IMG/VR virus record: IMGVR_UViG_2508501067_000008
Coordinates: 91-64,090 of that record
Strand: one strand, 5' to 3'
Length of the DNA: 64,000 nucleotides
From: a virus
Lineage: Duplodnaviria; Caudoviricetes
In this document: positions 13,290-56,285 of the stretch, in pieces
Position numbering within the stretch: position 1 is the stretch's first letter
How the letters are laid out: every line of letters starts with the position of its first letter
Translations under genes and position numbers: made by a program
Notes under the pieces: generated by a model
What the model saw: only the letters and a program-made list of their open reading frames with translations
Told to the model about the DNA's origin: nothing
The model's database searches: none

Positions 13290-14074
13290 ACCGCAACCCC
13301 GGCCCGGCGGTATTTCTCACGGACTTCGGGGTCAACGCGATCGGGCTTGGCTTTGTTGATGCGGCGCCCGATGGCGGCTCCCGCCAATGCTCCCGCAGCG
13401 GCCCCGTGGAGACCGTACCCCGCGGCCGTAACTCGCGGGATATTCTTCATGACGGTCATGGTCCGGGGCGTGACCCGGACAGGAAACTCTCCGCGTCTCC
13501 GGACCAACTCCTTTCCGATCTCGTTCGTCAGAGCCTTGCCGATCATGTATCCGCCAGCCGCGCCTGCGGCGGCGCCTGCACCGCCCCCCACCAGTCGCCC
13601 TCGTGTGATGTGGCTCTTGCGGGTCAGCCGGTAACTGGCGTCACCTACGGCCTCTTTGTATTCATCGTTGGCGTTCCGGGCGAAATCGATGACCGTTTTC
13701 AGGTCAGCTTTCAGTTGTGCGGTGTTCACGGGAATTACGGTACCCGCGGCCTTCGCGGGTTTTTTCGTTTCGACGACGGGGTCGATGGACTGGATTTCGA
13801 TGTCGGCAGACTCGGTGGTCTTGCCGTCCTCGTCGGTACGGACGGTGTGGTCGCGTAACCGGTATTCAATGACAGCCTTGCCCTTGCGCGGCAGGTCAAT
13901 CTTCTCCTTGCGGTGGATGTAGAGCGTGGGGTACCACGGACCGCGTGGCCTGGGGCTGGCAGGGGCCAGACCGGCACCGCACGAAGAATCGTCACGAGGT
14001 TCCCCAAGATCCATCTTGGCAAAATCGACGATCGTTTTCAGATCAGCTTTCAGTCGGGTGATGTGCGTTTTCAT
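13286..14074 (-). CDS. Virion-associated modular protein with duplicated LKADLKTxxDFA motif and glycine-zipper helices
   Basis: ATG 14074 (ATGA overlap); LKADLKTIVDFAK and LKADLKTVIDFAR; GAGAAAGAAGG and GAAAGALAGAAIG helices. Confidence 0.65.
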   Translation of the reverse strand: MKTHITRLKADLKTIVDFAKMDLGEPRDDSSCGAGLAPASPRPRGPWYPTLYIHRKEKIDLPRKGKAVIEYRLRDHTVRTDEDGKTTESADIEIQSIDPVVETKKPAKAAGTVIPVNTAQLKADLKTVIDFARNANDEYKEAVGDASYRLTRKSHITRGRLVGGGAGAAAGAAGGYMIGKALTNEIGKELVRRRGEFPVRVTPRTMTVMKNIPRVTAAGYGLHGAAAGALAGAAIGRRINKAKPDRVDPEVREKYRRAGVAV

Positions 14075-14403
14075 GTGAGTGGTCCAAGCTGTAGTTCGAC
14101 GGTATCGCCGGTGTAGCCGACATCGGGGTTGTTCCGGACACGGAAGGTTCCACCGGGGATGGTGACGTGGAGCCCCCTGGCGCGACCAGCGCGGGCCTTC
14201 GCGTCCTCCCAGCAGGCGATGCTGAGGATGACCGTGCCCGTGGCTTCCTGGCTGCGGCCCGCCTTGCCGTCGGCAATCGTGTCGGCGAGGTCGAAACCGT
14301 GGATGATGCACGGGCAGGTCTTGCCCGCGATCGTGCAGGTGTCCCCGAAAACGTCGGTGGCGGGCTCGAAGGCCAGACTGAATGCCTCGGTAAAGTCGTT
14401 CAT
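14071..14403 (-). CDS. Head closure / head-tail joining protein (putative)
   Basis: 110 aa after capsid gene; start ATG 14403 or GTG 14415. Confidence 0.6.
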   Translation of the reverse strand: MNDFTEAFSLAFEPATDVFGDTCTIAGKTCPCIIHGFDLADTIADGKAGRSQEATGTVILSIACWEDAKARAGRARGLHVTIPGGTFRVRNNPDVGYTGDTVELQLGPLT

Positions 14404-14415
14404 GCGGTGCGGCAC

Positions 14416-14447
14416 AAAAAGCCCCGAGTCAACTTGTGACCCGGGGC
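14416..14447 (-). terminator. Intrinsic terminator downstream of major capsid gene
   Basis: Minus strand GCCCCG-GGTC..GACT-CGGGGC hairpin then TTTTT. Confidence 0.7.
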
Positions 14448-14473
14448 CGAACAACCGTGACAGGAGGAGAGAA

Positions 14474-15424
14474 TCAGGCCCACTGGGTGGCGATGAGCGT
14501 ACCGGCAGGCTTGCTGATGACCTTCTCGTCCGTGTTGCTACGAACACGGATGCAGTCGGAACGAATGGCCTCCTTGCGGTAGGTTTCGGTGACGAAGACC
14601 GAGCCGCCCGTATCGCCCGTCCAGACGAGAGTGCGACCAACACCGCCTGCGGCAAAATCGCCACCCTGGACGTTGCCGAGGAAGATGTAGTTGGGCTGCC
14701 AGATGTAGCCGAGCACCGGAGTCTGCCCCTTGTCCGCAGAGTCGAAGGTAGCGTCACCGATCAGGACGTTGGGAATACCGAACGCCTTGCCGAGCATTTC
14801 GACCGTGACCTGCTGGCCGCCACCGAGAGGACCAAAGAGGAACTTCGCGAAGAGGTCGGAAACACGGATGCGGTCGAACACGTCGCGATTGAGCACGAGA
14901 GTGTTGGCGTCCTCGCCACGCATCTTGATGCGTTTGATAGCCGCCTGGATGTCGGCGGCAAAATCGACGGTGGCCCGGTTCGCAGCGGTGTAGGGGACCG
15001 TCGAATTGACCGAGTCGAAGTTTGCCGGGTTCTGGACCTTGAACGCAACGCGAGCCTCCATTCCGAGCTTGATGCGCCGGAGAAGGAGTTTGGCGCTGGT
15101 CGCCTCAAGACTGAACGTGTTGGCGACCTCGGCGGCGTGGACGTCGTCGACGTCTTCCTCAAGACCGCGATCCACCGTGCGGTAATTGTCCTTCTCGAAG
15201 GAGCGATCAACCTGCCCGTAACCGCTCTTGGGGGCGCGGGTGGTATCACCCTTCTTGAGCAGCTCCGAGGCCGACATGGTGATCTTGCGGTACTCGCCCG
15301 TGTTACGATCCACCGTAAACACGGGGAACACCTGATTGGCGATGAAGTAGGAATCGGCAGCCTGAGCTTCCTCCAGGACGGAGTTCAGTTCGGGGCGAAT
15401 CTCGGCGGTGGGATTGGTGTACAT
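14474..15424 (-). CDS. Major capsid protein (lambda gpE-like)
   Basis: 316 aa; IANQVFPVFTV...GEY N-terminal motif; follows decoration and protease genes. Confidence 0.88.
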   Translation of the reverse strand: MYTNPTAEIRPELNSVLEEAQAADSYFIANQVFPVFTVDRNTGEYRKITMSASELLKKGDTTRAPKSGYGQVDRSFEKDNYRTVDRGLEEDVDDVHAAEVANTFSLEATSAKLLLRRIKLGMEARVAFKVQNPANFDSVNSTVPYTAANRATVDFAADIQAAIKRIKMRGEDANTLVLNRDVFDRIRVSDLFAKFLFGPLGGGQQVTVEMLGKAFGIPNVLIGDATFDSADKGQTPVLGYIWQPNYIFLGNVQGGDFAAGGVGRTLVWTGDTGGSVFVTETYRKEAIRSDCIRVRSNTDEKVISKPAGTLIATQWA

Positions 15425-27213: not shown

Positions 27214-27574
27214 TAGATGCGGGAGAGAAGAGCGCGCAACGTGCTCTTTGCGTTACACACTGGGTTGAATCCCCGTAACGCACGCCACCCGATGACCGCC
27301 GCGATATTCGCGGGGTTATCCTAATCGAATTTCCGCACACGTTACCGTGTGCGACGGTCACCGCCGTGACCGGTAAATTGACGGCATTGCGCACAATGCG
27401 CTGAATGGTTGAGGGGCGGCCATAAACGTCCCGGTCTCGGCGAACTCACCGTCGTGTCGTGGTCCGCAGCTATGAATGTCGGGGTCTCACCGGTCTGCTT
27501 CCAAAAGACCGGTCAATTTCATCCTGTCTGCGATGTCCGGATAATTCCGTCCGGCTCGCTGTCACCAAACCACC

Positions 27575-28306
27575 ATGAGCAAACCCGCTCCCGTGGCGAT
27601 GGACAGCATCGCCAAACACGAACCGGCCGAGATTGCCGCGTTCGTCGCGACCGCCGCCGCACAGGCGAAGGTCACTTTTCTCAATGTCGCCAAGGGCATT
27701 GTTGCCCTCGAGGCCAAGGTCGGCCGTGACGAGGCGAAGGCTTTCTACAAGAAAGCCGGAGTCACGGAGCACACCCTCAAGAACGCCCGTCAGGCCGTGC
27801 AGGTCTGGGAGGACGTTGTCACCGCCAAACATGCCGACGAGGCGTGGTTCGACCAGCTCACCTACATGGACTGTGTCGTCATCAACCGCGCCATCCGCGC
27901 GGTGACGGTCAAACCGCTCGTCGAGCAGGGTCTCTTCAAGAAGCGTCCCGCCCTCGCCTACGGCCAGTTCGAGAAAGCTGCCGACGGATCGCCGGCCAAG
28001 GAGGAAACCCCGCCCCAGAAAGTGGCGAAACCCGCCAAGGCACCCGCCCCCTCGAAGAATGACGACGAAGGGGAGGAAACGACGCCACCCAAACAGGCGA
28101 AGCGTCCGGATGTCGCCGCGGTCGAGAAAATCGAAGCCGCCGAGAAAGCCGTCCTCGGTCTCGTCGACCTGGCGGATCAGGTCACGGCGGAACGGGTCTA
28201 CCAGCGCCTCCTCGCGACGCAACTCGCCGTCAAGATGGCGATGGAAAAGCGGTGGAAGCCCGTCCACGTCGAGGAGCTCCGTAACGTCAGCACCCGCGCG
28301 TCCTGA
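27575..28306 (+). CDS. Hypothetical early protein
   Basis: 243 aa, strong phage-like codon bias, A/C-rich leader. Confidence 0.75.
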   Translation: MSKPAPVAMDSIAKHEPAEIAAFVATAAAQAKVTFLNVAKGIVALEAKVGRDEAKAFYKKAGVTEHTLKNARQAVQVWEDVVTAKHADEAWFDQLTYMDCVVINRAIRAVTVKPLVEQGLFKKRPALAYGQFEKAADGSPAKEETPPQKVAKPAKAPAPSKNDDEGEETTPPKQAKRPDVAAVEKIEAAEKAVLGLVDLADQVTAERVYQRLLATQLAVKMAMEKRWKPVHVEELRNVSTRAS

Positions 28307-28647
28307 TGCGCGTCCTCATCCTCCGTGCAACGCTCCCGGCATTGCACGGCCTTCTCGGAGTGCCGCTTTTCGTCATCGGACAGAGACCGCCGTGGCGGCT
28401 GCCGTCATGGCTCGTCTGGAACCCCGGCCCCGGCGACAAACCGCCGGATGATCCTTTCCGCGCCAGTCACGACCCTCCGGCGCGTTTGCGTAGAATAACA
28501 ATCAACCTTTGCCGTCCCGCACGTGGTTGGAACGTGGTCAGGGTCGACATCTCTCGAAAAGACAGACAGGCCCCGCATCGCCTTGGTAGGTGCGGAACGG
28601 TAGCGAAGACAAAGGGTCGACAACCGGACCCGCTACCGTTGAATACC

Positions 28648-28710
28648 GGCGTTCCCCGATGGTCGGGCAGGATGATAGCCCTGCGCGGTTCGATTCCGCG
28701 GTCGCCGCCA
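28648..28710 (+). ncRNA. Compact tRNA-like RNA (T-arm plus CCA end)
   Basis: CGCGG-TTCGATT-CCGCG T-arm then GTCGCCGCCA; two upstream hairpins; 5' end uncertain. Confidence 0.45.
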
Positions 28711-28791
28711 CTTTCCCGACCGGCGAGGTTCAACCTCGGGTGCGCGCACCTGACAACAACAACGTGGGGCCTGCGTGGGCACCCTTCTTCT

Positions 28792-28872
28792 GCGGCCGAC
28801 GCTCGCGTTGGTTCGAAGCCGGCACCTGAACCGTGTCGTGATCAAGCGGAGGTTCGATTCCTCCCGGCCGCA
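28792..28872 (+). tRNA. Atypical tRNA-Phe(GAA)-like
   Basis: Perfect acceptor GCGGCCG/CGGCCGC plus A73, D-loop GG, GGCAC-CTGAACC-GTGTC anticodon arm, GGAGG-TTCGATT-CCTCC T-arm; non-canonical A8, G14, C37; no encoded CCA. Confidence 0.7.
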
Positions 28873-28981
28873 TTCCTTTTCCGACTCAGCCTCGGCGGGC
28901 TGCCACGTCCCGCGGCAACAGAACCCTACGTGTTGGCCCGAACGGGTACGCGGGCAAACCGAAGACACCCACCAATTTTTC

Positions 28982-29077
28982 GAGGATCGGCAGACGGCGC
29001 CCTATCTGCGGTCAGGTAAACTGGCCCAGCCAGACAGGCTGTGTCAGTAGTCGGTTCGAGTCCGACCGTCCTCACCA
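28982..29077 (+). tRNA. Atypical class-II tRNA-like (Leu-UAA by position)
   Basis: GAGGATC/CGTCCTC acceptor plus ACCA, 5-bp D-stem, GGTCA-GGTAAAC-TGGCC arm, CAGCC/GGCTG variable arm, GTCGG-TTCGAGT-CCGAC T-arm. Confidence 0.58.
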
Positions 29078-29239
29078 CTTTCGTTCAATTCGGGCATTCC
29101 CGTGCCTGGCCTGAGCCTGCTTTCGAAACCGAACAGGACAGGCACTTGAGACCCGCGGGGCGCAGCCTGCGAAAGCGCGCAAAAGAAATCAACAGGCCGC
29201 CCGCCGGAGCGTCATCCGGCACCACCTTTCCACCACGCC

Positions 29240-31356
29240 ATGAGCACAACCTCCCGTCAGCGTACCGCCAAACAACCTCGCCGCGTTCGCGGTGCCCATC
29301 CCGGCGACAAGCCGGTCCCGTCCGGTCCGAACCGGCACCTGATTCGTCGCAAGGCAGTCGGCCTGTTCCGCCCCGCCGATGCCGACCAGTCGCCGGGTGG
29401 CGCCTTCGGCAAGCCGGATCACAAACGCGCCGATAGCGACAGGCGCATCGTGCGCCGCAACGCCCGCAAGCAACTCGCGTTGCTGGGCGTGTCATCCGGG
29501 AAGTGATTCCCGTTCGGTTCGGTTATCGTACCCGATTTTTTAGATACGATGCACAAAACTGCAACCCTTCACCTCGTCGCATTGCTCCTGCTGCTCGCCC
29601 TGTTCGGCGTGGCGGGAGCATTCGACTGTCCGCTATGACTATCGTCAAACTCGATAAAGCCGCTGTCGTCTCGATCTTCAACCACGCCAGCAGCCAGCAA
29701 GAGTATCTCGAAGGTCTCTACCGGCTTGTAATCCCGGAGTGGGAAACCGTCGAGCAAGTTACCGAATACCCTGTGTGCTCCCGGGACACATGGATGGAAA
29801 TCTGTAAACTGGCTCGATCCTTCGACGAGAACCTTAACAAGAGCCGCACCCACAACAACAACAAGATCATGCCAGGTGGCGCGTGGATGAATTCGGGTTT
29901 CGGCACAGCCAACGATGGCGAACTCGCCCTGTGGGAAGTCCGGCCACCCGATCCAGCGAAAATCCTCCGCAAACAACCCGTGTCGGTATGAACCCGCGCA
30001 TCCACCTCGAAGCCTGCCGGATCGTCCGCGAGCGGAAGGCGCCGGATTACCGTGCCGCCTGCGCCATGATCGCGAAACGTCGTCGGTATCAACCGCAACC
30101 CGTCCAACCGCGCCTTGTGCGTATGCCCTACCGTGACGACTGACTATCTTTCAATCCCGCTGCGTCGACGCCTTGAATTGGTGAAGAAGCGTACGGATGT
30201 CGACAGTTGCATCGGCGACTGGACGGCCCGGCGCCACACCATCCGCTATTTCCTCGACAGGAAATCCGGCTCGGGTGGCGAGCCGTGGCAATGCGGTGGA
30301 TGCACCGTCCGATTCTGCGAACAGGCCGACGATGTATTCCCCGAGCTTCGTTTCGCCCACAAGGTCAATACGTACCTCCGGCACACCGGCTGGTATGTGG
30401 ACAACCTCCATGACGAAACCACCGTCGGCGTCGTCGTGACGCTTCCGGGCCGCCGCGGTTTCGCAGCCGCCACCACCGACCCGTGGAACTTCGGCATCGA
30501 GTCGATGACCGGCCCCCTGATCGTCGAGATCGGCGAGACGTACGCCGAAGAAAGCGATGCCGCCCGGGCTGCCGACCTGCTCGCCAGAAAGACGGCCTGC
30601 TACACCCGCATCGCGAAGTTGCAGGAAAACTACTGGGAGGCCGTGCGGTGAAGGGAAATTTTCCCGATAGGTCACGCAGAAACCAGCTCCACAATTCGCC
30701 GGTTATCGTAACCGAGTATTGAATACGATGAACGAATCCAAACCCAAGCTTGACAACGGGCTTGAACAGTGGTGCAAGGAATACTGCCCCACCCTGCCGG
30801 CCCGCATCGAGGCAGTCGTTGCCGAATGGGGCATCAGCGTCACCGATCAGGGACACGCCCGCGATCTCCTGTTGGAACATGTCCGCCAGTCCGTCGCCAC
30901 AACTTCATGACACCCGATCAATACCGGAAACGCCTTCTGCCCTTCGTTCGCCTCCTGTTCGACACCCTGTCTCCCGCGCAGCAACGGCTTATCGCCGCCA
31001 AACATAAGGACGCGCCCGAAGACGTTCGTGAGGTCCATAATCCGGAAAACGTAAGCGCGGACCAACTACCGGATGGGTATCGGTTTCTCTACATCGACGA
31101 ACTGAACAACACGGATAGTATGCCCTTCGCCAAAATCTGGGTCGAGAGCGATGATAGGTGGGGTGACCCTATACCTGCCCGGGAACGTTATCTCGACAGG
31201 TTCACCTACGCCATCCCCATCAACCTCCCCGACAAAGAATCTCCGGCGTCATCCGACGCCGCCACACCAACCACATCAAAGGACAACATGCCCGCACCCG
31301 TACCGCCCAGATCCGTCAGGAAATCCGCCATCCAGATACTCGACGAGGGGGCCTGA
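29240..31356 (+). CDS. Array of small early hypothetical genes (29240-29506, 29549-29638, 29635-29991, 29988-30143, 30133-30651, 30728-30910, 30907-31356)
   Basis: Tightly packed, ATGA/GTGA-coupled ORFs; 29549-29638 is a 29-aa hydrophobic peptide found by hand. Confidence 0.6.
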
Positions 31357-51856: not shown

Positions 51857-52470
51857 TGCCCACCCTCCCGCAAATGAGCAAACTGACTCCGCAACAGATC
51901 GATCGCGCCCTCAACATCGGCGAAAAAGTCGTCGACCTCGCCGTCGACGTATGGCGCACCCGCAAGAAGCGGGTTCAGGAGAAACCCGTCCGTAATAAAT
52001 CGCAACAATTTCTGAGAAAATGAAAACCCTCGTTCGCGCAACATTGTCTAAAGCTGCCGAGACCCTCGTCGGGCATGGAGGAGTTCGCAACCGGCATTTC
52101 AGCCGGGCCGCAGGTATTACCGGGAAACGCGCCCGTAAATTTCTAAAACAGGCGCGGCGTACTCTCCGGGAACGTACACCTGCCGTCGGCACCCTCAAGG
52201 AAGCAAAGTCATGATTGCAGCCCTCTCCTCCGAGGAAATCCTCCTGATCAAGTACGCCATCGGTGCGATCCTTCCGGTGATCGTCCTGCTGGCGATCGTA
52301 CGTAACTGATGAAGTCGTTGCGGTACAATGCAGATTTGTTCGCACTCCGGGACGACAAGGCGCTCGCCCGTGCAAACGAATGCGCCCTTCGCGTCGGCAC
52401 CGAGGAGGCCCGCCGGCTCCTGGCCGCTATCCGCACCCGTCACCGCATCCGCGATCTGAGTCTTCGCTAA
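51856..52470 (+). CDS. Four very small coupled genes (51856-52023, 52020-52214, 52211-52309 TM peptide, 52309-52470)
   Basis: Hand translation; overlapping stop/start codons. Confidence 0.5.
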
Positions 52471-52472
52471 CC

Positions 52473-54703
52473 ATGTCAGTAAGTCTTTATGATTGGCAGG
52501 AGCCTTCCGCCCTGACGCTACAGCAATCGCTACTCAGCCACAACGTGGCGGCGGACGGTAGCGAAATGGGCTGCCACGCCCGAGGGGCGTTAATCTTGAT
52601 GTATGACGGGGCACTGAAACGGGTGGAAGATGTGACTGTCGGGGACGCTCTCATGGGGTGGGACAATACGCCCCGATACGTAGTGTCCCTCGCACGTGGC
52701 AGGTCGGCCATGGCCCGCATTTGCCCTACGAAGGGTGAACCGTTCGTGGTCAATTGTGACCATATGTTGACGTTGGTCCAGACCAACACATCCCTGTGCC
52801 GTTCGATGCCCAGGCACAACGGCCGGATCGTGGATGTTTCGGTCAAGGACTATCTGACGTGGAGTCGGGAGTGGAAAACGCTGCATCTGCTCTTCCGGGT
52901 AGGAGTGGAGCTTCCGGAACAAGACCTCCCCGTAGACCCGTATTTTTTGGGGGTTCTGTTGGGAGACGGGTCATTCCGGGGCTATTACGCTCAGGTTTCA
53001 AAACCTGACCCTGAACTCGAGGAGTACCTTCAGATGCTCGGGATTCCGTTTACCCGGACGCAGACGGGAAATCGTTGCCCCAATTTCTATTTGAAATCCC
53101 CTCCCCTGCATCACGCATTGGCTCATCTCGGACTGTGGGGAAAGCTGTCCGGGGAGCGGTTCATCCCGGACGTGTACCGCCGAAGTTCGCGGCATCAACG
53201 ACTGGCTCTTCTGGCCGGACTTCTGGATACTGATGGGCATCTCACGCATACGGGCGGGTACGATTACGTTTCACAGTCCAAAGACCTTGCAACTGATGCG
53301 GCGTTTGTCGCCCGCAGTCTGGGACTAGCCGCGTACGTCCGACCCTGCTGGAAACGGGCCCAGACGGGGAATGGAGGTATCTATTACCGCGTTTCAATTT
53401 CCGGGGATTGTGCCGTAATCCCTTGCCGCATACCTCGGAAGAAAGCGTTACCTCGAGCCCAGAAAAAATCGGTGCTTCGGACTAGCTTCACTGTGGAGTC
53501 GTTGCCTGAAGACGATTTTTTCGGGTTTTCTCTTACGGGCGATGGCAGGTATCTGATGGGAGACTTTACCGTAACCCATAATACTGGCAAGACGATCAAG
53601 GCGTGTGTCGTCGCCAAGCGCCTCGGTCGCCCGCTTTTCGTGGCATGCCCCAAGTCGGTTATCCCCGACTGGCTGGATTGGGCTGAACGGGTTGGCGTAC
53701 CCTGCATCGCGGCCAATTATGACCGTATCCGCGCAGGCAAGACGCCGTACGGAGAATGGCAAACCAAGGGGAAGCTGTTCCAGTGGACGCTGCCGCCGGA
53801 CACGCTTCTTGTTTTCGATGAAGCCCACCGTCTTGGCGGAATCGACACGCAGCAGAGCCGTCTTCTGGTAGCGGCGAAGAATCAGGGGTACACACACCTG
53901 CTCCTCTCCGGCACCCTTATTGAAAATCCTCTCAAGTGTCGGGCTATCGGGTACTCGCTTGGACAGCACACCCTGCTCAATTTCTGGCAATGGGCGAAAC
54001 GACATGGAGTTCGTGAAGGCGTATTCGGGATGGAGTTCCGTCCGAAGAACGAGACCCCTGCCCAGGTCATGGAACGGATTCGTGCCGCCCTTGGCGACCG
54101 GTTTACCCGCATCCGCAAAGCCGACGTGCCCGGCTTCCCCGTAAAGCAGGTGATTCCGGTATACGTCCAGACCGACGATATGCCGGAGGACGAGACCCTC
54201 GACGGAGGGCGCTACGGGTACGCAGCCCGCATGCACGTGGAATTGCTGAAGGTGCCTGGCCTCGTCGACCGGACCCGCGATCTTGTCGATCAGGGGCAAA
54301 GCGTGGCCGTTTTTGTCAACTACCTCGATACGCTGAACGCCCTCCTCAAGGAGCTTCCCGACGCGGCGGTCATACGGGGTGGTCAGAGCTCCACCGAACG
54401 CAGCCGGAACATCGACATGTTCCAGACCAACGCCCGGCACGTCGTGCTGGTCATGATGCAGGCAGGCGGCACCGGGGTGAGTCTCCACGACCTGCACGGG
54501 CGACCGCGCTCCTCCATTATCTGCCCGGGCAACTCGGCGCTCGATTTCCTGCAAGCCGTCGACCGCATTCACCGCGCCGGGGCCAGATCGCCCGCCACCG
54601 TCTACGTAGCTCTTGCGAGCGGCGTGCCTGTCGAGCGTCGAATCCGTCACCGGATCGAGAGCAAACTGACGAACTTGTCGGCCTTGAATGACGCCGACTT
54701 TGA
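52473..54703 (+). CDS. SF2 (SNF2-like) helicase containing an intein; true 3' end probably near 54703
   Basis: G|TGKT, VFDEAH, LSGT, QAVDRIHRAG; as given the frame reads through to 56285. Confidence 0.85.
52572..53582 (+). mobile_element. Intein (337 aa) with LAGLIDADG homing endonuclease
   Basis: Starts CHARG, ends VTHN followed by T; FLGVLLGDGS and LLAGLLDTDG motifs; inserted in Walker A. Confidence 0.92.
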
Positions 54704-54726
54704 GAACTTTCAACCCACAACAAAAA

Positions 54727-55077
54727 ATGCCGGAACCTGCTGTAATAAATCGAAACAAATTGCAACCGCTGTCGCTGCTGGACCTGTATCTGAAAGTTCA
54801 GGAACTTCTTCGCCAGAAGAGCCCTGCGTATCCGACCAATGTCCTGTCGGTGGAGCTGGATACGCATACGGACCCGGAGGGGCGGGCGCAGGTGACGGTG
54901 GAGACCCTGACGGAGCACGAGCTTCAGGCGGACATTGCTGTTCTGGTGGACCCGGCGCCGAATCCGCCGTCCAATCCACAACCGGCGCCATCGCCGGTTG
55001 TGGCTCCCAAACAGCGTCAGCCACGGGTTTCGAGCATTCGGGCGGCAGTGGAGAAGGGAGGGAACCAGACATGGTAA
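54727..55077 (+). CDS. Hypothetical protein nested in alternative frame of the long ORF
   Basis: Protein-like LSLLDLYLKVQELL...VSVELD; A-rich leader; stop overlaps nuclease ATG. Confidence 0.6.
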   Translation: MPEPAVINRNKLQPLSLLDLYLKVQELLRQKSPAYPTNVLSVELDTHTDPEGRAQVTVETLTEHELQADIAVLVDPAPNPPSNPQPAPSPVVAPKQRQPRVSSIRAAVEKGGNQTW

Positions 55078-56285
55078 GGATTCTCGTCCCCCCTCCCCCG
55101 TCCGAACCGATCCCGGCCCAGCCTGCGGAAGTGCCGGGGGCGACCGGCAACCACAAGGTGCGCACCCATGCCCGGTGCAGTCCGTCCAAACTCAAAAACC
55201 TCGAGATTTGCCCCAGCTACGAAGGGGACGACGAAGCACCTGTCCATCCCGTCACCCTTCGCGGCACGGCGATGCACGAAGCCCTGGAGACCGGTGACAA
55301 CAGTCACCTCCTCGACGACGAGGAATTGCGCCTCGTCACCATGTGTCGCGAGTTTCTTGCCGAGGAAGTCGCCGCCGCCGAGACCGTCATCGACGAACAG
55401 CACCTCAAGACCCACGACAAGGATGTTCAGGGTTTTGTGGACAAGCTCCTCATCTTCCCGAAAAACCCGACGACCGGGCGACGGAAGGCGAAAATCCGGG
55501 ACTTCAAGATGGGCTGGAACGCGGTCGACACTCCGGATCAGAACCCGCAGGCGATCGCCTATACTCTGGCGGTCTTCCTCCAGTGGGAAGACGTTGACGA
55601 GGTTGATTTCGCCTTCCTGATCCCGCGTCTCGACCTGGTCCTTCAGCATACGTTCACCCGGGCGGATGTGCCGGCCCTCAGACTCCGCGTCAGCCTGATT
55701 GCCGACCGTGTGCGCAAGCTCGCGGGCAAGGAGTTCAATCCCGTCAACGAGAATTGCCTGTACTGCGGTCGCAAAGCCACCTGCCGCCCATGTATCGACA
55801 AGTCCCTGACGATCGCACGTGGGTATGACGATGGAAGCAAACTCCCCCTCCCTGCCACGCTTGATCCCTCCCAGCTAACCGATCCCCAGCAGATTGCCTA
55901 CGGCCTCAATGCGGCCTCCGTGCTGGAGAGCTGGATTGAACAGATGCGCCGTCATGCGCTGCGCTTCCGTCAGGAGATCGGCGTCGAAGTCCCCGGCTAT
56001 GATTACATCGAACGGCAGGCGAAACGTGAGATCGCCAATCCCGTCGGTGCCTGGGAAATCCTGAACAAGGAGTTCGGAGTTACCCAGGAGGAATACCTCT
56101 CTGCCTGCAAAGCGTCCATCACCCAGCTTGAGAAAGTGGTCAAGGACCACGCTCCGCACGGCGCGAAGGACAAAGCCGCCGAACGCTTCACCGACCGGCT
56201 TCTCGACGAGGGTTTCCTCACCCGGGGCGCGTCGTTTCACGTGCTGCAACGCAGCAAGAAAAAGAAGGCCCTGAAAGCGGCCTGA
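55071..56285 (+). CDS. Cas4/AddB-like PD-(D/E)XK exonuclease with Fe-S cysteines
   Basis: SPSK..CP, GTAMHE, GFVD, DFKMG, QAIAY, CLYC...C. Confidence 0.85.
   Translation: MVRILVPPPPSEPIPAQPAEVPGATGNHKVRTHARCSPSKLKNLEICPSYEGDDEAPVHPVTLRGTAMHEALETGDNSHLLDDEELRLVTMCREFLAEEVAAAETVIDEQHLKTHDKDVQGFVDKLLIFPKNPTTGRRKAKIRDFKMGWNAVDTPDQNPQAIAYTLAVFLQWEDVDEVDFAFLIPRLDLVLQHTFTRADVPALRLRVSLIADRVRKLAGKEFNPVNENCLYCGRKATCRPCIDKSLTIARGYDDGSKLPLPATLDPSQLTDPQQIAYGLNAASVLESWIEQMRRHALRFRQEIGVEVPGYDYIERQAKREIANPVGAWEILNKEFGVTQEEYLSACKASITQLEKVVKDHAPHGAKDKAAERFTDRLLDEGFLTRGASFHVLQRSKKKKALKAA

What the first reader, a model, noticed from the sequence alone, without database searches (positions are those of the whole stretch)
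28792..28872. tRNA-Phe(GAA)-like gene with rewired conserved positions
All four stems form, with a perfect 7-bp acceptor and canonical T-loop. However U8 is A, A14 is G, purine 37 is C, and the variable region is about 10 nt. C37 would abolish the usual position-37 modification. Phage tRNAs with altered anticodon loops are known to counter host anticodon nucleases. This one may be such an evader, a decoy, or a non-translational tRNA mimic.
Basis: partly seen in the sequence, partly recalled or inferred. Interest (0 to 1): 0.75.

Follow-up and report, generated by a model that had tools for sequence, protein, structure and literature searches.

The report
Degenerate phenylalanine-tRNA look-alike in prophage
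A prophage carries a lone, heavily altered descendant of a phenylalanine tRNA gene, one of three tRNA-shaped units in a non-coding stretch; it almost certainly cannot read codons, has no relatives anywhere I could search, and nothing yet shows it is more than a unit that the cell's tRNA-trimming enzymes would still cut out.

Summary
The element is real. ARAGORN calls tRNA-Phe(GAA) at 28791-28873, against about 0.03 false calls per shuffled window. It fails Rfam's tRNA model (no hit at E<=10). Its D stem has only 3 pairs.

It shares GCTC, GTTGGT, CTGAA, GTGTCGT, the T-loop and A73 with tRNA-Phe of Opitutaceae genomes, so it descends from a Phe-type tRNA.

It is the middle of three tandem tRNA-shaped units in a roughly 680-nt non-coding leader of the early operon:
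- E1, 28647-28710
- E2, this finding
- E3, 28982-29077

Only E1 is conserved. E1 belongs to a widespread tRNA-like family that Rfam lacks.

E2 has no homologue in viral contigs, 401 Opitutaceae genomes, a metagenome scan anchored on E1, or about 2 Mb of fetched loci. The four syntenic relatives lack it. Covariation therefore cannot be tested, and no RNA data exist.

Best reading: a non-decoding tRNA relic whose intact acceptor/T-arm half still makes it an RNase P processing unit. The nuclease-evader reading is not supported, and the decoy reading is untested. This scan has already noted non-decoding tRNA look-alikes in other phages.

The parts
28792..28872 (+). E2, the finding: a tRNA-Phe(GAA)-derived tRNA-like unit. 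Acceptor 28792-28798 / 28865-28871. D region 28801-28819. Anticodon stem 28821-28825 / 28833-28837. Loop CTGAACC 28826-28832. Variable region 28838-28847. T arm 28848-28864. A73 at 28872. No CCA encoded.
   Evidence: Sequence; ARAGORN; shuffle control; folding; comparison with Opitutaceae tRNA-Phe; no RF00005 hit.
28647..28710 (+). E1: a compact tRNA-like unit. Acceptor CGGCG/CGCCG. Hairpin CCCGA-TGG-TCGGG. Hairpin CAGG-ATGATAGC-CCTG. T arm CGCGG-TTCGATT-CCGCG. Encoded CCA. It is the only one of the three units conserved in related phages.
   Evidence: Homologues in L002, L025, L035 and L036 and in dozens of viral, genomic and metagenomic loci. Alignment A1 shows covariation. Model R1 scores it at 62.6 bits.
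28982..29077 (+). E3: a class II tRNA-Leu(UAA)-like unit with A73 and an encoded CCA, but with anticodon loop GGTAAAC (no U33).
   Evidence: ARAGORN at a relaxed threshold; MFE is a class II cloverleaf, z = -2.6; tRNA-Sec model 23.6 bits; an Opitutaceae tRNA-Leu(UAA) has loop CTTAAAA.
28306..28580 (+). A conserved small ORF of roughly 80-90 codons that follows the 243-aa gene. Gene callers extend it to 29019 (237 aa), straight through E1 and E2. The end coordinate is approximate.
   Evidence: Only residues 27-81 match the 78-aa ORF of L036 (E 2e-11). There is no codon periodicity from about 28560 to 29240. No Pfam or PHROG family hit.
27575..28306 (+). Upstream 243-aa gene of unknown function. 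It serves as a synteny anchor.
   Evidence: Homologues P0122-P0124; 47% identity to the end of the upstream gene in L002.
29240..29506 (+). Downstream 88-aa basic protein gene. It serves as a synteny anchor. In relatives E1 lies just upstream of its homologue.
   Evidence: BLASTP match to L002:704-1012; alignment A2 with the L025 and L035 homologues; strong GC3 periodicity.
28708..28720 (+). Trailer CCACTTTCCCGAC after E1. A similar TTTTCCGAC follows E2 at 28877-28885, CCACTTTCG follows E3 at 29075-29083, and CCACCTTTCC precedes the start codon at 29222-29231.
   Evidence: Sequence; the same CCA(A)CACTTTC motif follows E1 in L002, L025 and L035; motif count in the window.

Best explanation
E2 is a descendant of a phenylalanine tRNA gene that no longer works as a decoder.

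What it keeps: a perfect acceptor stem, a canonical T arm, the GG of the D loop, and the GAA triplet with A73.

What it has lost: the U8-A14-A21 core, purine 37, the 5-nt variable loop and the encoded CCA.

Where it sits: it is the second of three tandem tRNA-shaped units in the roughly 680-nt non-coding stretch between a small conserved ORF and a conserved small basic-protein gene, inside the rightward early operon of a prophage.

Inferred mechanism:
- The unit is transcribed as part of that operon.
- Its acceptor/T-arm minihelix is recognised by RNase P at G1 (28792), and by 3' trimming enzymes after A73.
- The operon RNA is thereby cut between the upstream and downstream genes.
- An RNA of about 81 nt with a tRNA-like upper half is released.

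Shown: the tRNA ancestry, the failure of decoder criteria, the non-coding setting and the lack of conservation. Inferred: transcription, processing, and any benefit to the phage.

I put about 0.8 on 'tRNA-derived and non-decoding'. I put about 0.45 on the fuller claim that it is kept as a processing or structural module and is not a neutral relic.
For: It is real, not a chance match: ARAGORN calls it at default settings, against 4 hits in 150 shuffled windows.

Ancestry: it shares GCTC, GTTGGT, CTGAA, GTGTCGT, TTCGATT and A73 with tRNA-Phe of five Opitutaceae genomes.

Not a decoder:
- RF00005 gives no hit at E<=10.
- It has A8, G14, C37, a 10-nt variable region and no CCA.
- Host-lineage tRNA-Phe and tRNA-Leu genes do encode CCA.

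Non-coding setting:
- No codon periodicity from about 28560 to 29240.
- Only the first third of the overlapping ORF is homologous to anything.
- No plus-strand terminator lies between the flanking genes.

The pattern of change is not random (inference). The acceptor (7/7), T (5/5) and anticodon (5/5) stems, the T loop (7/7) and G18G19 are intact. At least four near-invariant unpaired positions are changed.

The minihelix is robust: pairing probability about 1.

Context:
- E1, E2 and E3 lie within 430 nt on one strand.
- E1 and E2 have similar trailers.
- The related phage L002 has another odd tRNA-like unit. It is Cys GCA with A33 and an encoded CCA, and it was not reported by Rfam at E<=1. 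It ends about 11 nt before an ORF start.
Against: - No homologue of E2 was found anywhere, so selection on the fold cannot be shown.
- The syntenic relatives L002, L025 and L035 go from E1 to the downstream gene without it.
- The D stem is weak, and a more stable alternative fold exists.
- No expression data exist.
- The 'intact stems' argument is biased, because the unit was noticed precisely for its intact stems.
- The ancestor's sequence is unknown.
Confidence: 0.45

Rival explanations
1. Neutral relic. E2 is a phage tRNA-Phe pseudogene on its way out. It may still be clipped by RNase P, but it gives the phage nothing.
For: - It is a singleton, absent from all syntenic relatives.
- It fails the tRNA model.
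- It lacks the encoded CCA that host-lineage tRNA genes and the neighbouring units E1 and E3 have.
- It has a bulged or mismatched D stem and an odd 10-nt variable region.
- The phage shows no special need for extra decoding: Phe codons 34 per 1000, UUA 1.6 per 1000.
Against: Decay severe enough to change U8, A14, A21 and R37 should also have broken several of the 17 pairs in the acceptor, anticodon and T stems, and none is broken (inference). The T loop and G18G19 are untouched. The E2 trailer resembles the E1 trailer.
Confidence: 0.3
2. tRNA decoy or mimic. The excised E2 RNA, perhaps together with E3, binds and titrates a host factor that recognises tRNA-Phe or tRNA bodies in general, such as a tRNA-cleaving defence nuclease.
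For: - GAA, A73, U20, U59 and U60 are kept while decoding features are lost. That these are tRNA-Phe identity nucleotides rests on my own recollection of the E. coli literature.
- E3 and the L002 Cys-like unit also keep their anticodon triplets but spoil the loop, with G33 and A33 respectively.
- Relatives of this phage invest in tRNA-mimicking RNAs. L246 has a Ro60 gene with a YrlA-like match upstream of it.
- tRNA-targeting defences and phage tRNA counter-measures are documented (PMC10264068, PMC11464382, PMC11555353).
Against: No target is known, and the host genome could not be searched. There is no conservation. No nuclease specific for tRNA-Phe was named in the passages I read. The anticodon may be sequestered by pairing with the D loop.
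Confidence: 0.12
3. Working tRNA-Phe that evades a nuclease. E2 is charged by PheRS and reads UUY codons, and C37/C38 protect it from a host anticodon nuclease.
For: It has a 7-nt loop with U33 and GAA, a 5-bp anticodon stem, A73, a perfect acceptor stem and T arm, and ARAGORN calls it. The evader concept is published (PMC10264068).
Against: - A pyrimidine at position 37 next to A36 removes the stacking and the modification that UUY decoding relies on (established knowledge).
- The U8-A14-A21 core is gone, the D stem is defective and the variable loop is 10 nt.
- No CCA is encoded, although tRNA genes of this lineage encode it.
- RF00005 gives no hit at E<=10.
- Its differences from host-type tRNA-Phe are spread over the whole molecule, not confined to the loop.
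Confidence: 0.08
4. Not an RNA feature at all: either a chance cloverleaf, or part of the annotated 237-aa protein (28306-29019).
For: The ORF stays open across E1 and E2 and is called as a gene in public annotation. RNAfold z-score is only -1.5.
Against: - ARAGORN false-positive rate is about 0.03 per window.
- A canonical T arm sits next to two further tRNA-like units on the same strand.
- There is no codon periodicity.
- Only residues 27-81 of the ORF have a homologue, and that homologue stops before E1.
- E1, inside the same ORF, is conserved as a folded sequence, with compensatory changes in its stems, in loci where no such ORF was seen.
Confidence: 0.03

Closest known systems
Bacterial elongator tRNA-Phe(GAA) (Rfam RF00005)
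   Same: 7-bp acceptor stem, 5-bp T stem with TTCGATT loop, G18G19, 5-bp anticodon stem, 7-nt loop with U33 and GAA, and A73. It also shares GCTC, GTTGGT and GTGTCGT with Opitutaceae tRNA-Phe.
   Different: A8, G14, no A21, a bulged or mismatched D stem, C37 and C38, a 10-nt variable region and no encoded CCA. It gets no hit at E<=10 with RF00005, so it is far below the gathering score.
Phage tRNAs with anticodon-loop changes proposed to resist host anticodon nucleases (van den Berg et al. 2023, PMC10264068)
   Same: Phage-borne, and the anticodon loop differs from the host tRNA of the same anticodon.
   Different: As I read that paper, those are otherwise ordinary tRNAs whose differences from the host lie at nuclease cleavage or recognition sites. 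E2 is altered throughout and fails as a tRNA.
tRNA-like processing signals: mitochondrial tRNA punctuation, plant mitochondrial t-elements, mascRNA of MALAT1 (from my own knowledge)
   Same: A tRNA-shaped unit with an intact acceptor/T-arm half, inside a longer transcript and between coding regions, with no need for a working anticodon.
   Different: Those are conserved and their cleavage has been shown experimentally. E2 is a singleton with no RNA data.
YrlA / bacterial Y RNAs bound by Ro60 (Rfam RF02553; Chen et al. 2014, PMC4201824)
   Same: Non-decoding tRNA mimics found in bacteria and phages. A relative of this phage (L246) has a Ro60 gene with a YrlA-like match upstream of it.
   Different: YrlA is permuted (T arm, closed acceptor-like stem, then D arm), carries a GNCGAA motif and lies next to Ro60. 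E2 has the normal tRNA order, gets no YrlA hit, and the record has no TROVE gene.
The neighbouring E1 family (compact tRNA-like RNA with loop AUGAUAGC; not in Rfam)
   Same: Same cassette and strand, a tRNA-like acceptor and T arm, and a similar 3' trailer.
   Different: E2 lacks the AUGAUAGC hairpin and scores 19.4 bits with the E1 model R1. The five E1 units in that search score 58-67 bits.

Membership tests
Canonical decoding tRNA (RF00005), tRNA-Phe | Reaches the family's covariance-model gathering score (29 bits) | tested here: not met
   No match at E<=10 in the 64-kb record. In the clan competition the tRNA-Sec model won with 24.9 bits.
Canonical decoding tRNA (RF00005), tRNA-Phe | Four-stem cloverleaf with a 7-bp acceptor stem, 5-bp T stem and 5-bp anticodon stem | tested here: met
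   Sequence and ARAGORN drawing. The D stem has only 3 pairs plus a mismatch.
Canonical decoding tRNA (RF00005), tRNA-Phe | Core tertiary nucleotides U8, A14 and A21 | tested here: not met
   A8, G14, and C or G at the position of A21.
Canonical decoding tRNA (RF00005), tRNA-Phe | Elbow nucleotides G18, G19 and T-loop T54-T55-C56-R57-A58 | tested here: met
   GG at 28810-28811 and TTCGATT at 28853-28859.
Canonical decoding tRNA (RF00005), tRNA-Phe | 7-nt anticodon loop with U33 and a purine at position 37 | tested here: not met
   Loop CTGAACC: U33 is present, but position 37 is C (28831).
Canonical decoding tRNA (RF00005), tRNA-Phe | 3' CCA encoded, as in tRNA genes of the host lineage | tested here: not met
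   E2 ends A73-TTC. Five Opitutaceae tRNA-Phe genes and one tRNA-Leu gene end ACCA.
Canonical decoding tRNA (RF00005), tRNA-Phe | Aminoacylation and use in translation | not testable with these tools
   No RNA run holds the locus. This needs acid-urea northern blots or a PheRS charging assay.
Nuclease-evading phage tRNA | An otherwise normal tRNA whose differences from the host isoacceptor lie in the anticodon loop | tested here: not met
   Alignment with Opitutaceae tRNA-Phe shows changes in every stem, the D loop, the core and the variable loop.
Nuclease-evading phage tRNA | The host has a nuclease that cleaves the matching tRNA | not testable with these tools
   The host chromosome (GCA_000243495.3) is not held. 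Only 11-kb slices around phage genes could be fetched.
YrlA / Y RNA | Match to RF02553, permuted order T arm - closed acceptor-like stem - D arm, and a 5' GNCGAA motif | tested here: not met
   No YrlA match at E<=10 in 27500-30500. E2 has the normal tRNA order. Family features from PMC4201824.
YrlA / Y RNA | Ro60 (TROVE) gene nearby on the same strand | tested here: not met
   No PF05731 match in the 64-kb record. The record is estimated to be 63% complete, so the rest of the prophage is unseen.
E1 family (AUGAUAGC-loop tRNA-like RNA) | 4-bp hairpin with loop AUGAUAGC directly 5' of the T arm, and a high score with model R1 | tested here: not met
   E2 scores 19.4 bits, mostly from the T arm. 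The five E1 units in that search score 58-67 bits.
tRNA pseudogene (neutral relic) | Descent from a tRNA gene and loss of decoder features | tested here: met
tRNA pseudogene (neutral relic) | Random decay that also breaks stems, or truncation | tested here: not met
   All 17 pairs of the acceptor, anticodon and T stems are intact and the unit is full length.
tRNA-like processing signal (t-element / mascRNA type) | Acceptor/T-arm minihelix inside a transcript between coding regions | tested here: met
   Minihelix pairing probability about 1. Flanking genes are on the same strand with no plus-strand terminator between them.
tRNA-like processing signal (t-element / mascRNA type) | Cleavage by RNase P and RNase Z demonstrated, and the unit conserved | tested here: inconclusive
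   Cleavage cannot be tested here. Conservation is not met, since no homologue was found.

The most novel reading that the evidence does not exclude
E2 and E3 are purpose-built, non-decoding mimics of tRNA-Phe and tRNA-Leu. They keep the anticodon triplet and the discriminator base, but their anticodon loops are spoiled. On this reading the phage releases them from its early transcript to occupy or mislead a host factor that reads tRNA identity, for example a tRNA-cleaving defence nuclease. This would make the cassette a small anti-defence RNA operon built around the conserved E1 RNA.
Probability: 0.12. Interest if true: 0.7.

Novelty: new member of a known kind. Interest (0 to 1): 0.33.

Why it matters
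By itself E2 matters little. Degenerate tRNA genes are common in phages, and without relatives or RNA data nothing separates a kept module from a relic.

Its value is as a pointer to the cassette around it:
- The neighbouring E1 unit belongs to a widespread, covarying tRNA-like RNA family of phages and bacteria that Rfam does not hold.
- Relatives of this phage carry other odd tRNA-like units and a Ro60 gene with a YrlA-like match upstream of it.

If E2 and E3 turned out to be deliberate mimics, the locus would add to the growing picture of phages that make tRNA look-alikes which do not decode.

Tried and rejected
Searches for E2 homologues, all negative:
- blastn of 28300-29300 against 50,697 phage records.
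- Exact 25-mer of the T arm plus acceptor in viral contigs.
- Pattern CTGAACC...GGTTCGANTCC in viral contigs: the 82 loci listed include none alike.
- BLAST of the cassette against 401 genomes of the Opitutaceae family group: only short matches near the chance level.
- blastn of E2, E3 and the spacers against 259 fetched loci, 2 Mb.
- Metagenome scan anchored on E1 with the GCCGCCA tail: 10 loci, none with an E2-like neighbour.

Searches for closer relatives:
- Single-protein search for related loci with the 243-aa and AAA proteins found nothing.
- The small-protein alignment A2 was too divergent to use as a query.
- The 88-aa protein has no homologue by word search.
- L263 is too short to be useful.

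RNA evidence: no RNA holder is listed for the locus. Read laying was not used, because only DNA runs of the same organism hold it.

Idea: E2 and E3 are donors for aminoacyl-tRNA transferases (Leu/Phe transferase, FemAB). No PF03588 or PF02388 match in the record. Dropped.

Idea: E2 is a Y RNA. No TROVE gene and no YrlA match. Dropped.

Idea: E2 is an att-site copy. The 3' half has no second copy in the window, even with 3 mismatches allowed, and the unit is a full cloverleaf in mid-operon. Dropped.

Idea: E1-type units generally abut start codons. A crude test showed no enrichment: 14 of 56 within 40 nt, against 384 of 1120 random positions. The statement is kept only for the close relatives.

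Idea: the alternative RNAfold structure shows E2 is not a cloverleaf. Weakened by the control, in which one genuine tRNA-Phe also misfolds.

The minus-strand Rfam hit 'Plastid-ycf2' (25 bits against a gathering score of 65.7) matches a tRNA-like stem and hairpin read on the reverse complement.

The host name could not be confirmed: the accessions appear in no paper searched.

Full report
**Observation**

- It has a perfect 7-bp acceptor stem (GCGGCCG/CGGCCGC).
- It has a canonical T arm (GGAGG-TTCGATT-CCTCC).
- It has a 5-bp anticodon stem around the loop CTGAACC. U33 is present, GAA lies at 28828-28830, and positions 37 and 38 are C.
- It has A8, G14, A73 and a 10-nt variable region. No CCA is encoded.

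ARAGORN calls tRNA-Phe(GAA) at 28791-28873. The same settings gave 4 calls in 150 dinucleotide-shuffled copies of the window, about 0.03 per window. The element is therefore not a chance cloverleaf.

Two qualifications apply.
- The D stem has only three pairs plus a C-A mismatch or a bulged A.
- In the RNAfold ensemble only the acceptor and T stems are secure, with probability about 1. The anticodon stem has 0.14 and the D stem 0.02. A rival helix between GGUUC of the D loop and GAACC of the anticodon loop has 0.66.

I do not lean on the fold result. One of three genuine Opitutaceae tRNA-Phe sequences also fails to give a cloverleaf as its MFE.

**Is it a tRNA?**

Rfam's tRNA model finds nothing at E<=10 in the whole 64-kb record. 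At the gathering threshold the window has no RNA family match at all. The best sub-threshold match to E2 is tRNA-Sec at 24.9 bits, against a gathering score of 47.

E2 lacks several things that decoding tRNAs have:
- the U8-A14-A21 core;
- a purine at position 37;
- a class I variable loop;
- the encoded CCA.

For comparison, tRNA-Phe genes from five Opitutaceae genomes and one tRNA-Leu(UAA) gene are fully canonical and all end ACCA.

E2 does share several segments with those tRNA-Phe genes:
- the D-stem strand GCTC;
- GTTGGT of the D loop;
- CTGAA of the anticodon loop;
- GTGTCGT, which is the variable loop and start of the T stem in tRNA-Phe;
- the T loop TTCGATT;
- A73.

I conclude that E2 descends from a Phe-type tRNA gene but is no longer a decoder.

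**Setting**

The window is an IMG/VR provirus record. It lies in a 6.2-Mb contig of assembly GCA_000243495.3. Identical copies occur in other runs of the same organism.

Public annotation places E2 inside a 237-aa ORF (28306-29019). Three results argue against that ORF being real over E2.
- Only its residues 27-81 are homologous to anything. The match is a 78-aa ORF in L036 that stops before the tRNA-like region.
- Codon-position GC shows no periodicity from about 28560 to 29240.
- No protein family matches it.

So about 680 nt are non-coding. They lie between that small ORF and an 88-aa basic-protein gene (29240-29506), all on the plus strand, with no plus-strand terminator between them.

This stretch holds three tRNA-shaped units:
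- E1 (28647-28710);
- E2;
- E3 (28982-29077), a class II Leu(UAA)-like unit with A73-CCA but loop GGTAAAC.

**Relatives**

Synteny is conserved in L002, L025, L035 and L036: the 243-aa gene, then non-coding DNA, then the small basic-protein gene.

All four relatives have E1, and none has E2 or E3. In L036 the contig ends just after E1.

E1 proved to be a member of a large family. The pattern GGATGATAGCCC...GTTCRA found the following loci, and more than 60 of them fold into the same compact four-way structure:
- 30 viral loci;
- 10 metagenomic loci, using a stricter pattern.

That structure runs in this order:
- a 5' strand beginning GGC;
- a hairpin with GG in its loop;
- a 4-bp hairpin with loop AUGAUAGC;
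- a T arm;
- a 3' strand ending GCC-R-CCA.

Compensatory changes occur in the acceptor stem, the AUGAUAGC hairpin and the T stem.

The genomic hosts include Opitutaceae, Chthoniobacter, Obscuribacterales, Saccharibacteria and Paceibacterota. In L271 a hairpin followed by a T run, which looks like an intrinsic terminator, comes directly after the unit. Rfam has no match for E1.

A covariance model of the family (R1) scores the window's E1 at 62.6 bits. It scores E2 at only 19.4 and E3 at 15.2. E2 is therefore not a diverged E1.

**Search for E2 homologues**

Nothing similar was found in any of these:
- phage GenBank records;
- viral contigs, searched by exact word and by a loop-plus-T-loop pattern;
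- 401 genomes of the Opitutaceae family group;
- 259 fetched loci totalling 2 Mb;
- the neighbourhoods of E1 in metagenomes.

Protein searches with the flanking genes reached no closer relatives. What can be said is that the homologous loci lack the element. No RNA run holds the locus.

**Reading**

The pattern of change is uneven. All 17 pairs of the acceptor, anticodon and T stems are intact, as are the whole T loop and G18G19. At least four near-invariant unpaired positions (8, 14, 21, 37) and the variable loop are altered.

Random decay heavy enough to do the latter should also have broken stems. This argues, weakly, for continued selection on the tRNA shape and not on decoding. It is weak because the unit was noticed for its intact stems and because the ancestor is unknown.

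The acceptor/T-arm half is the main determinant that RNase P, 3' trimming enzymes and the CCA-adding enzyme use (established knowledge; see also PMC4201824, for YrlA). If the operon is transcribed, E2 should therefore be cut out, separating the upstream from the downstream message.

Two observations fit a modular cassette of processed units.
- E1 and E2 have similar trailers (TTTCCCGAC and TTTTCCGAC). A CCACTTTC-type motif recurs after E1 in the relatives and before the start codon at 29240.
- In L002 another odd unit ends about 11 nt before an ORF start. It is Cys GCA with A33 and an encoded CCA, and it was not reported by Rfam at E<=1.

My probabilities are:
- kept as a processing or structural module: about 0.45;
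- neutral relic: about 0.3;
- decoy or mimic: about 0.12;
- working nuclease-evading tRNA-Phe: about 0.08;
- not an RNA feature: about 0.03.

The evader reading is the weakest. As I read the published proposal, the evader tRNAs are otherwise ordinary and differ from the host in the anticodon loop (PMC10264068). E2 is altered everywhere. C37 next to A36 would also cripple UUY decoding (established knowledge).

**Other ideas tested**
- E2 is not a Y RNA. It has the normal arm order, no YrlA match and no Ro60 gene in the record. A relative, L246, does have a Ro60 gene with a YrlA-like match upstream of it.
- No aminoacyl-tRNA transferase is encoded.
- There is no second copy that would suggest an att site.
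- The phage has no unusual demand for Phe or UUA codons.

**Verdict**

As a singleton without RNA evidence, E2 is of modest interest (0.33). I class it as a new member of a known kind, the degenerate or non-decoding phage tRNA-like genes. Earlier notes of this scan describe non-decoding tRNA look-alikes in other phages. I used them only as context.

The more notable object is the neighbouring E1 family.

Noticed in passing
window 28647-28710 (+); alignment A1; model R1; loci L002, L006-L036, L122-L222, L264-L273: E1 belongs to a widespread compact tRNA-like RNA family that Rfam 15 did not match. Its parts in order are a 5' GGC strand, a hairpin with GG in the loop, a 4-bp hairpin with loop AUGAUAGC (UGAUA matches the tRNA-Ile GAU loop, from my own recollection), a T arm, and GCC-(A/G)-CCA. 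Stems covary. It occurs in phages and in genomes of Verrucomicrobiota, Obscuribacterales, Saccharibacteria, Paceibacterota and others. L145 has it in tandem, and in L271 a terminator-like hairpin follows it. The loop's invariance is partly imposed by my search pattern.
   Followed up: partly
window 28982-29077 (+): E3 is a class II tRNA-Leu(UAA)-like unit with A73-CCA and a 5-bp variable arm. Its loop is GGTAAAC (no Y32 or U33) and it has 8 extra nt before the T stem. A genuine Opitutaceae tRNA-Leu(UAA) has loop CTTAAAA. Like E2, it has no homologue in the relatives.
   Followed up: partly
L002 7886-7960 (same in L003 4182-4256): A related phage (AAA ATPase 69% identical) has a tRNA-Cys(GCA)-like unit with U73-CCA but A33 and a 3-bp D stem. 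ARAGORN calls it, but Rfam did not report it at E<=1. It ends about 11 nt before the start codon of the next ORF.
   Followed up: partly
L246 13100-13760, and Ro60 gene at 13760-15199: A relative (AAA ATPase 62% identical) encodes a Ro60/TROVE protein. Upstream lies about 650 nt of non-coding DNA. It holds five repeats of GCAGCAA(T/G)G...TTACTTC, three T-arm-like hairpins, a YrlA match (47.8 bits, below the gathering score of 69) and an ARAGORN 'tRNA-Thr' call. It looks like an array of Y-RNA-like modules. L247 4654-4707 has a partial YrlA match.
   Followed up: partly
window 28306-29019 (+): The annotated 237-aa ORF is a conserved ORF of roughly 80-90 codons that runs on, without a stop, through E1 and E2. 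Its start overlaps the stop of the 243-aa gene (ATGA).
   Followed up: yes
window 52380-56285 (+): The 1301-aa protein combines helicase C-terminal, DUF2800 and PD-(D/E)XK domains with a Hint domain and a LAGLIDADG domain near its N terminus. That is an intein-like insertion.
   Followed up: no
L041, L046, L047, L053 and about 17 more loci of IMG/VR sample 3300045988: Phages of roughly 70-140 kb from one metagenome share a near-identical class II tRNA-like gene. Its anticodon-loop region reads CCTGAAC, which would give C33 if UGA is the anticodon. It turned up only as a by-catch of the CTGAACC pattern.
   Followed up: no
window 28488-28512 (+): GTAGAATAACAATCAACC lies just before the cassette, at the end of the conserved part of the small ORF.
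   Followed up: no
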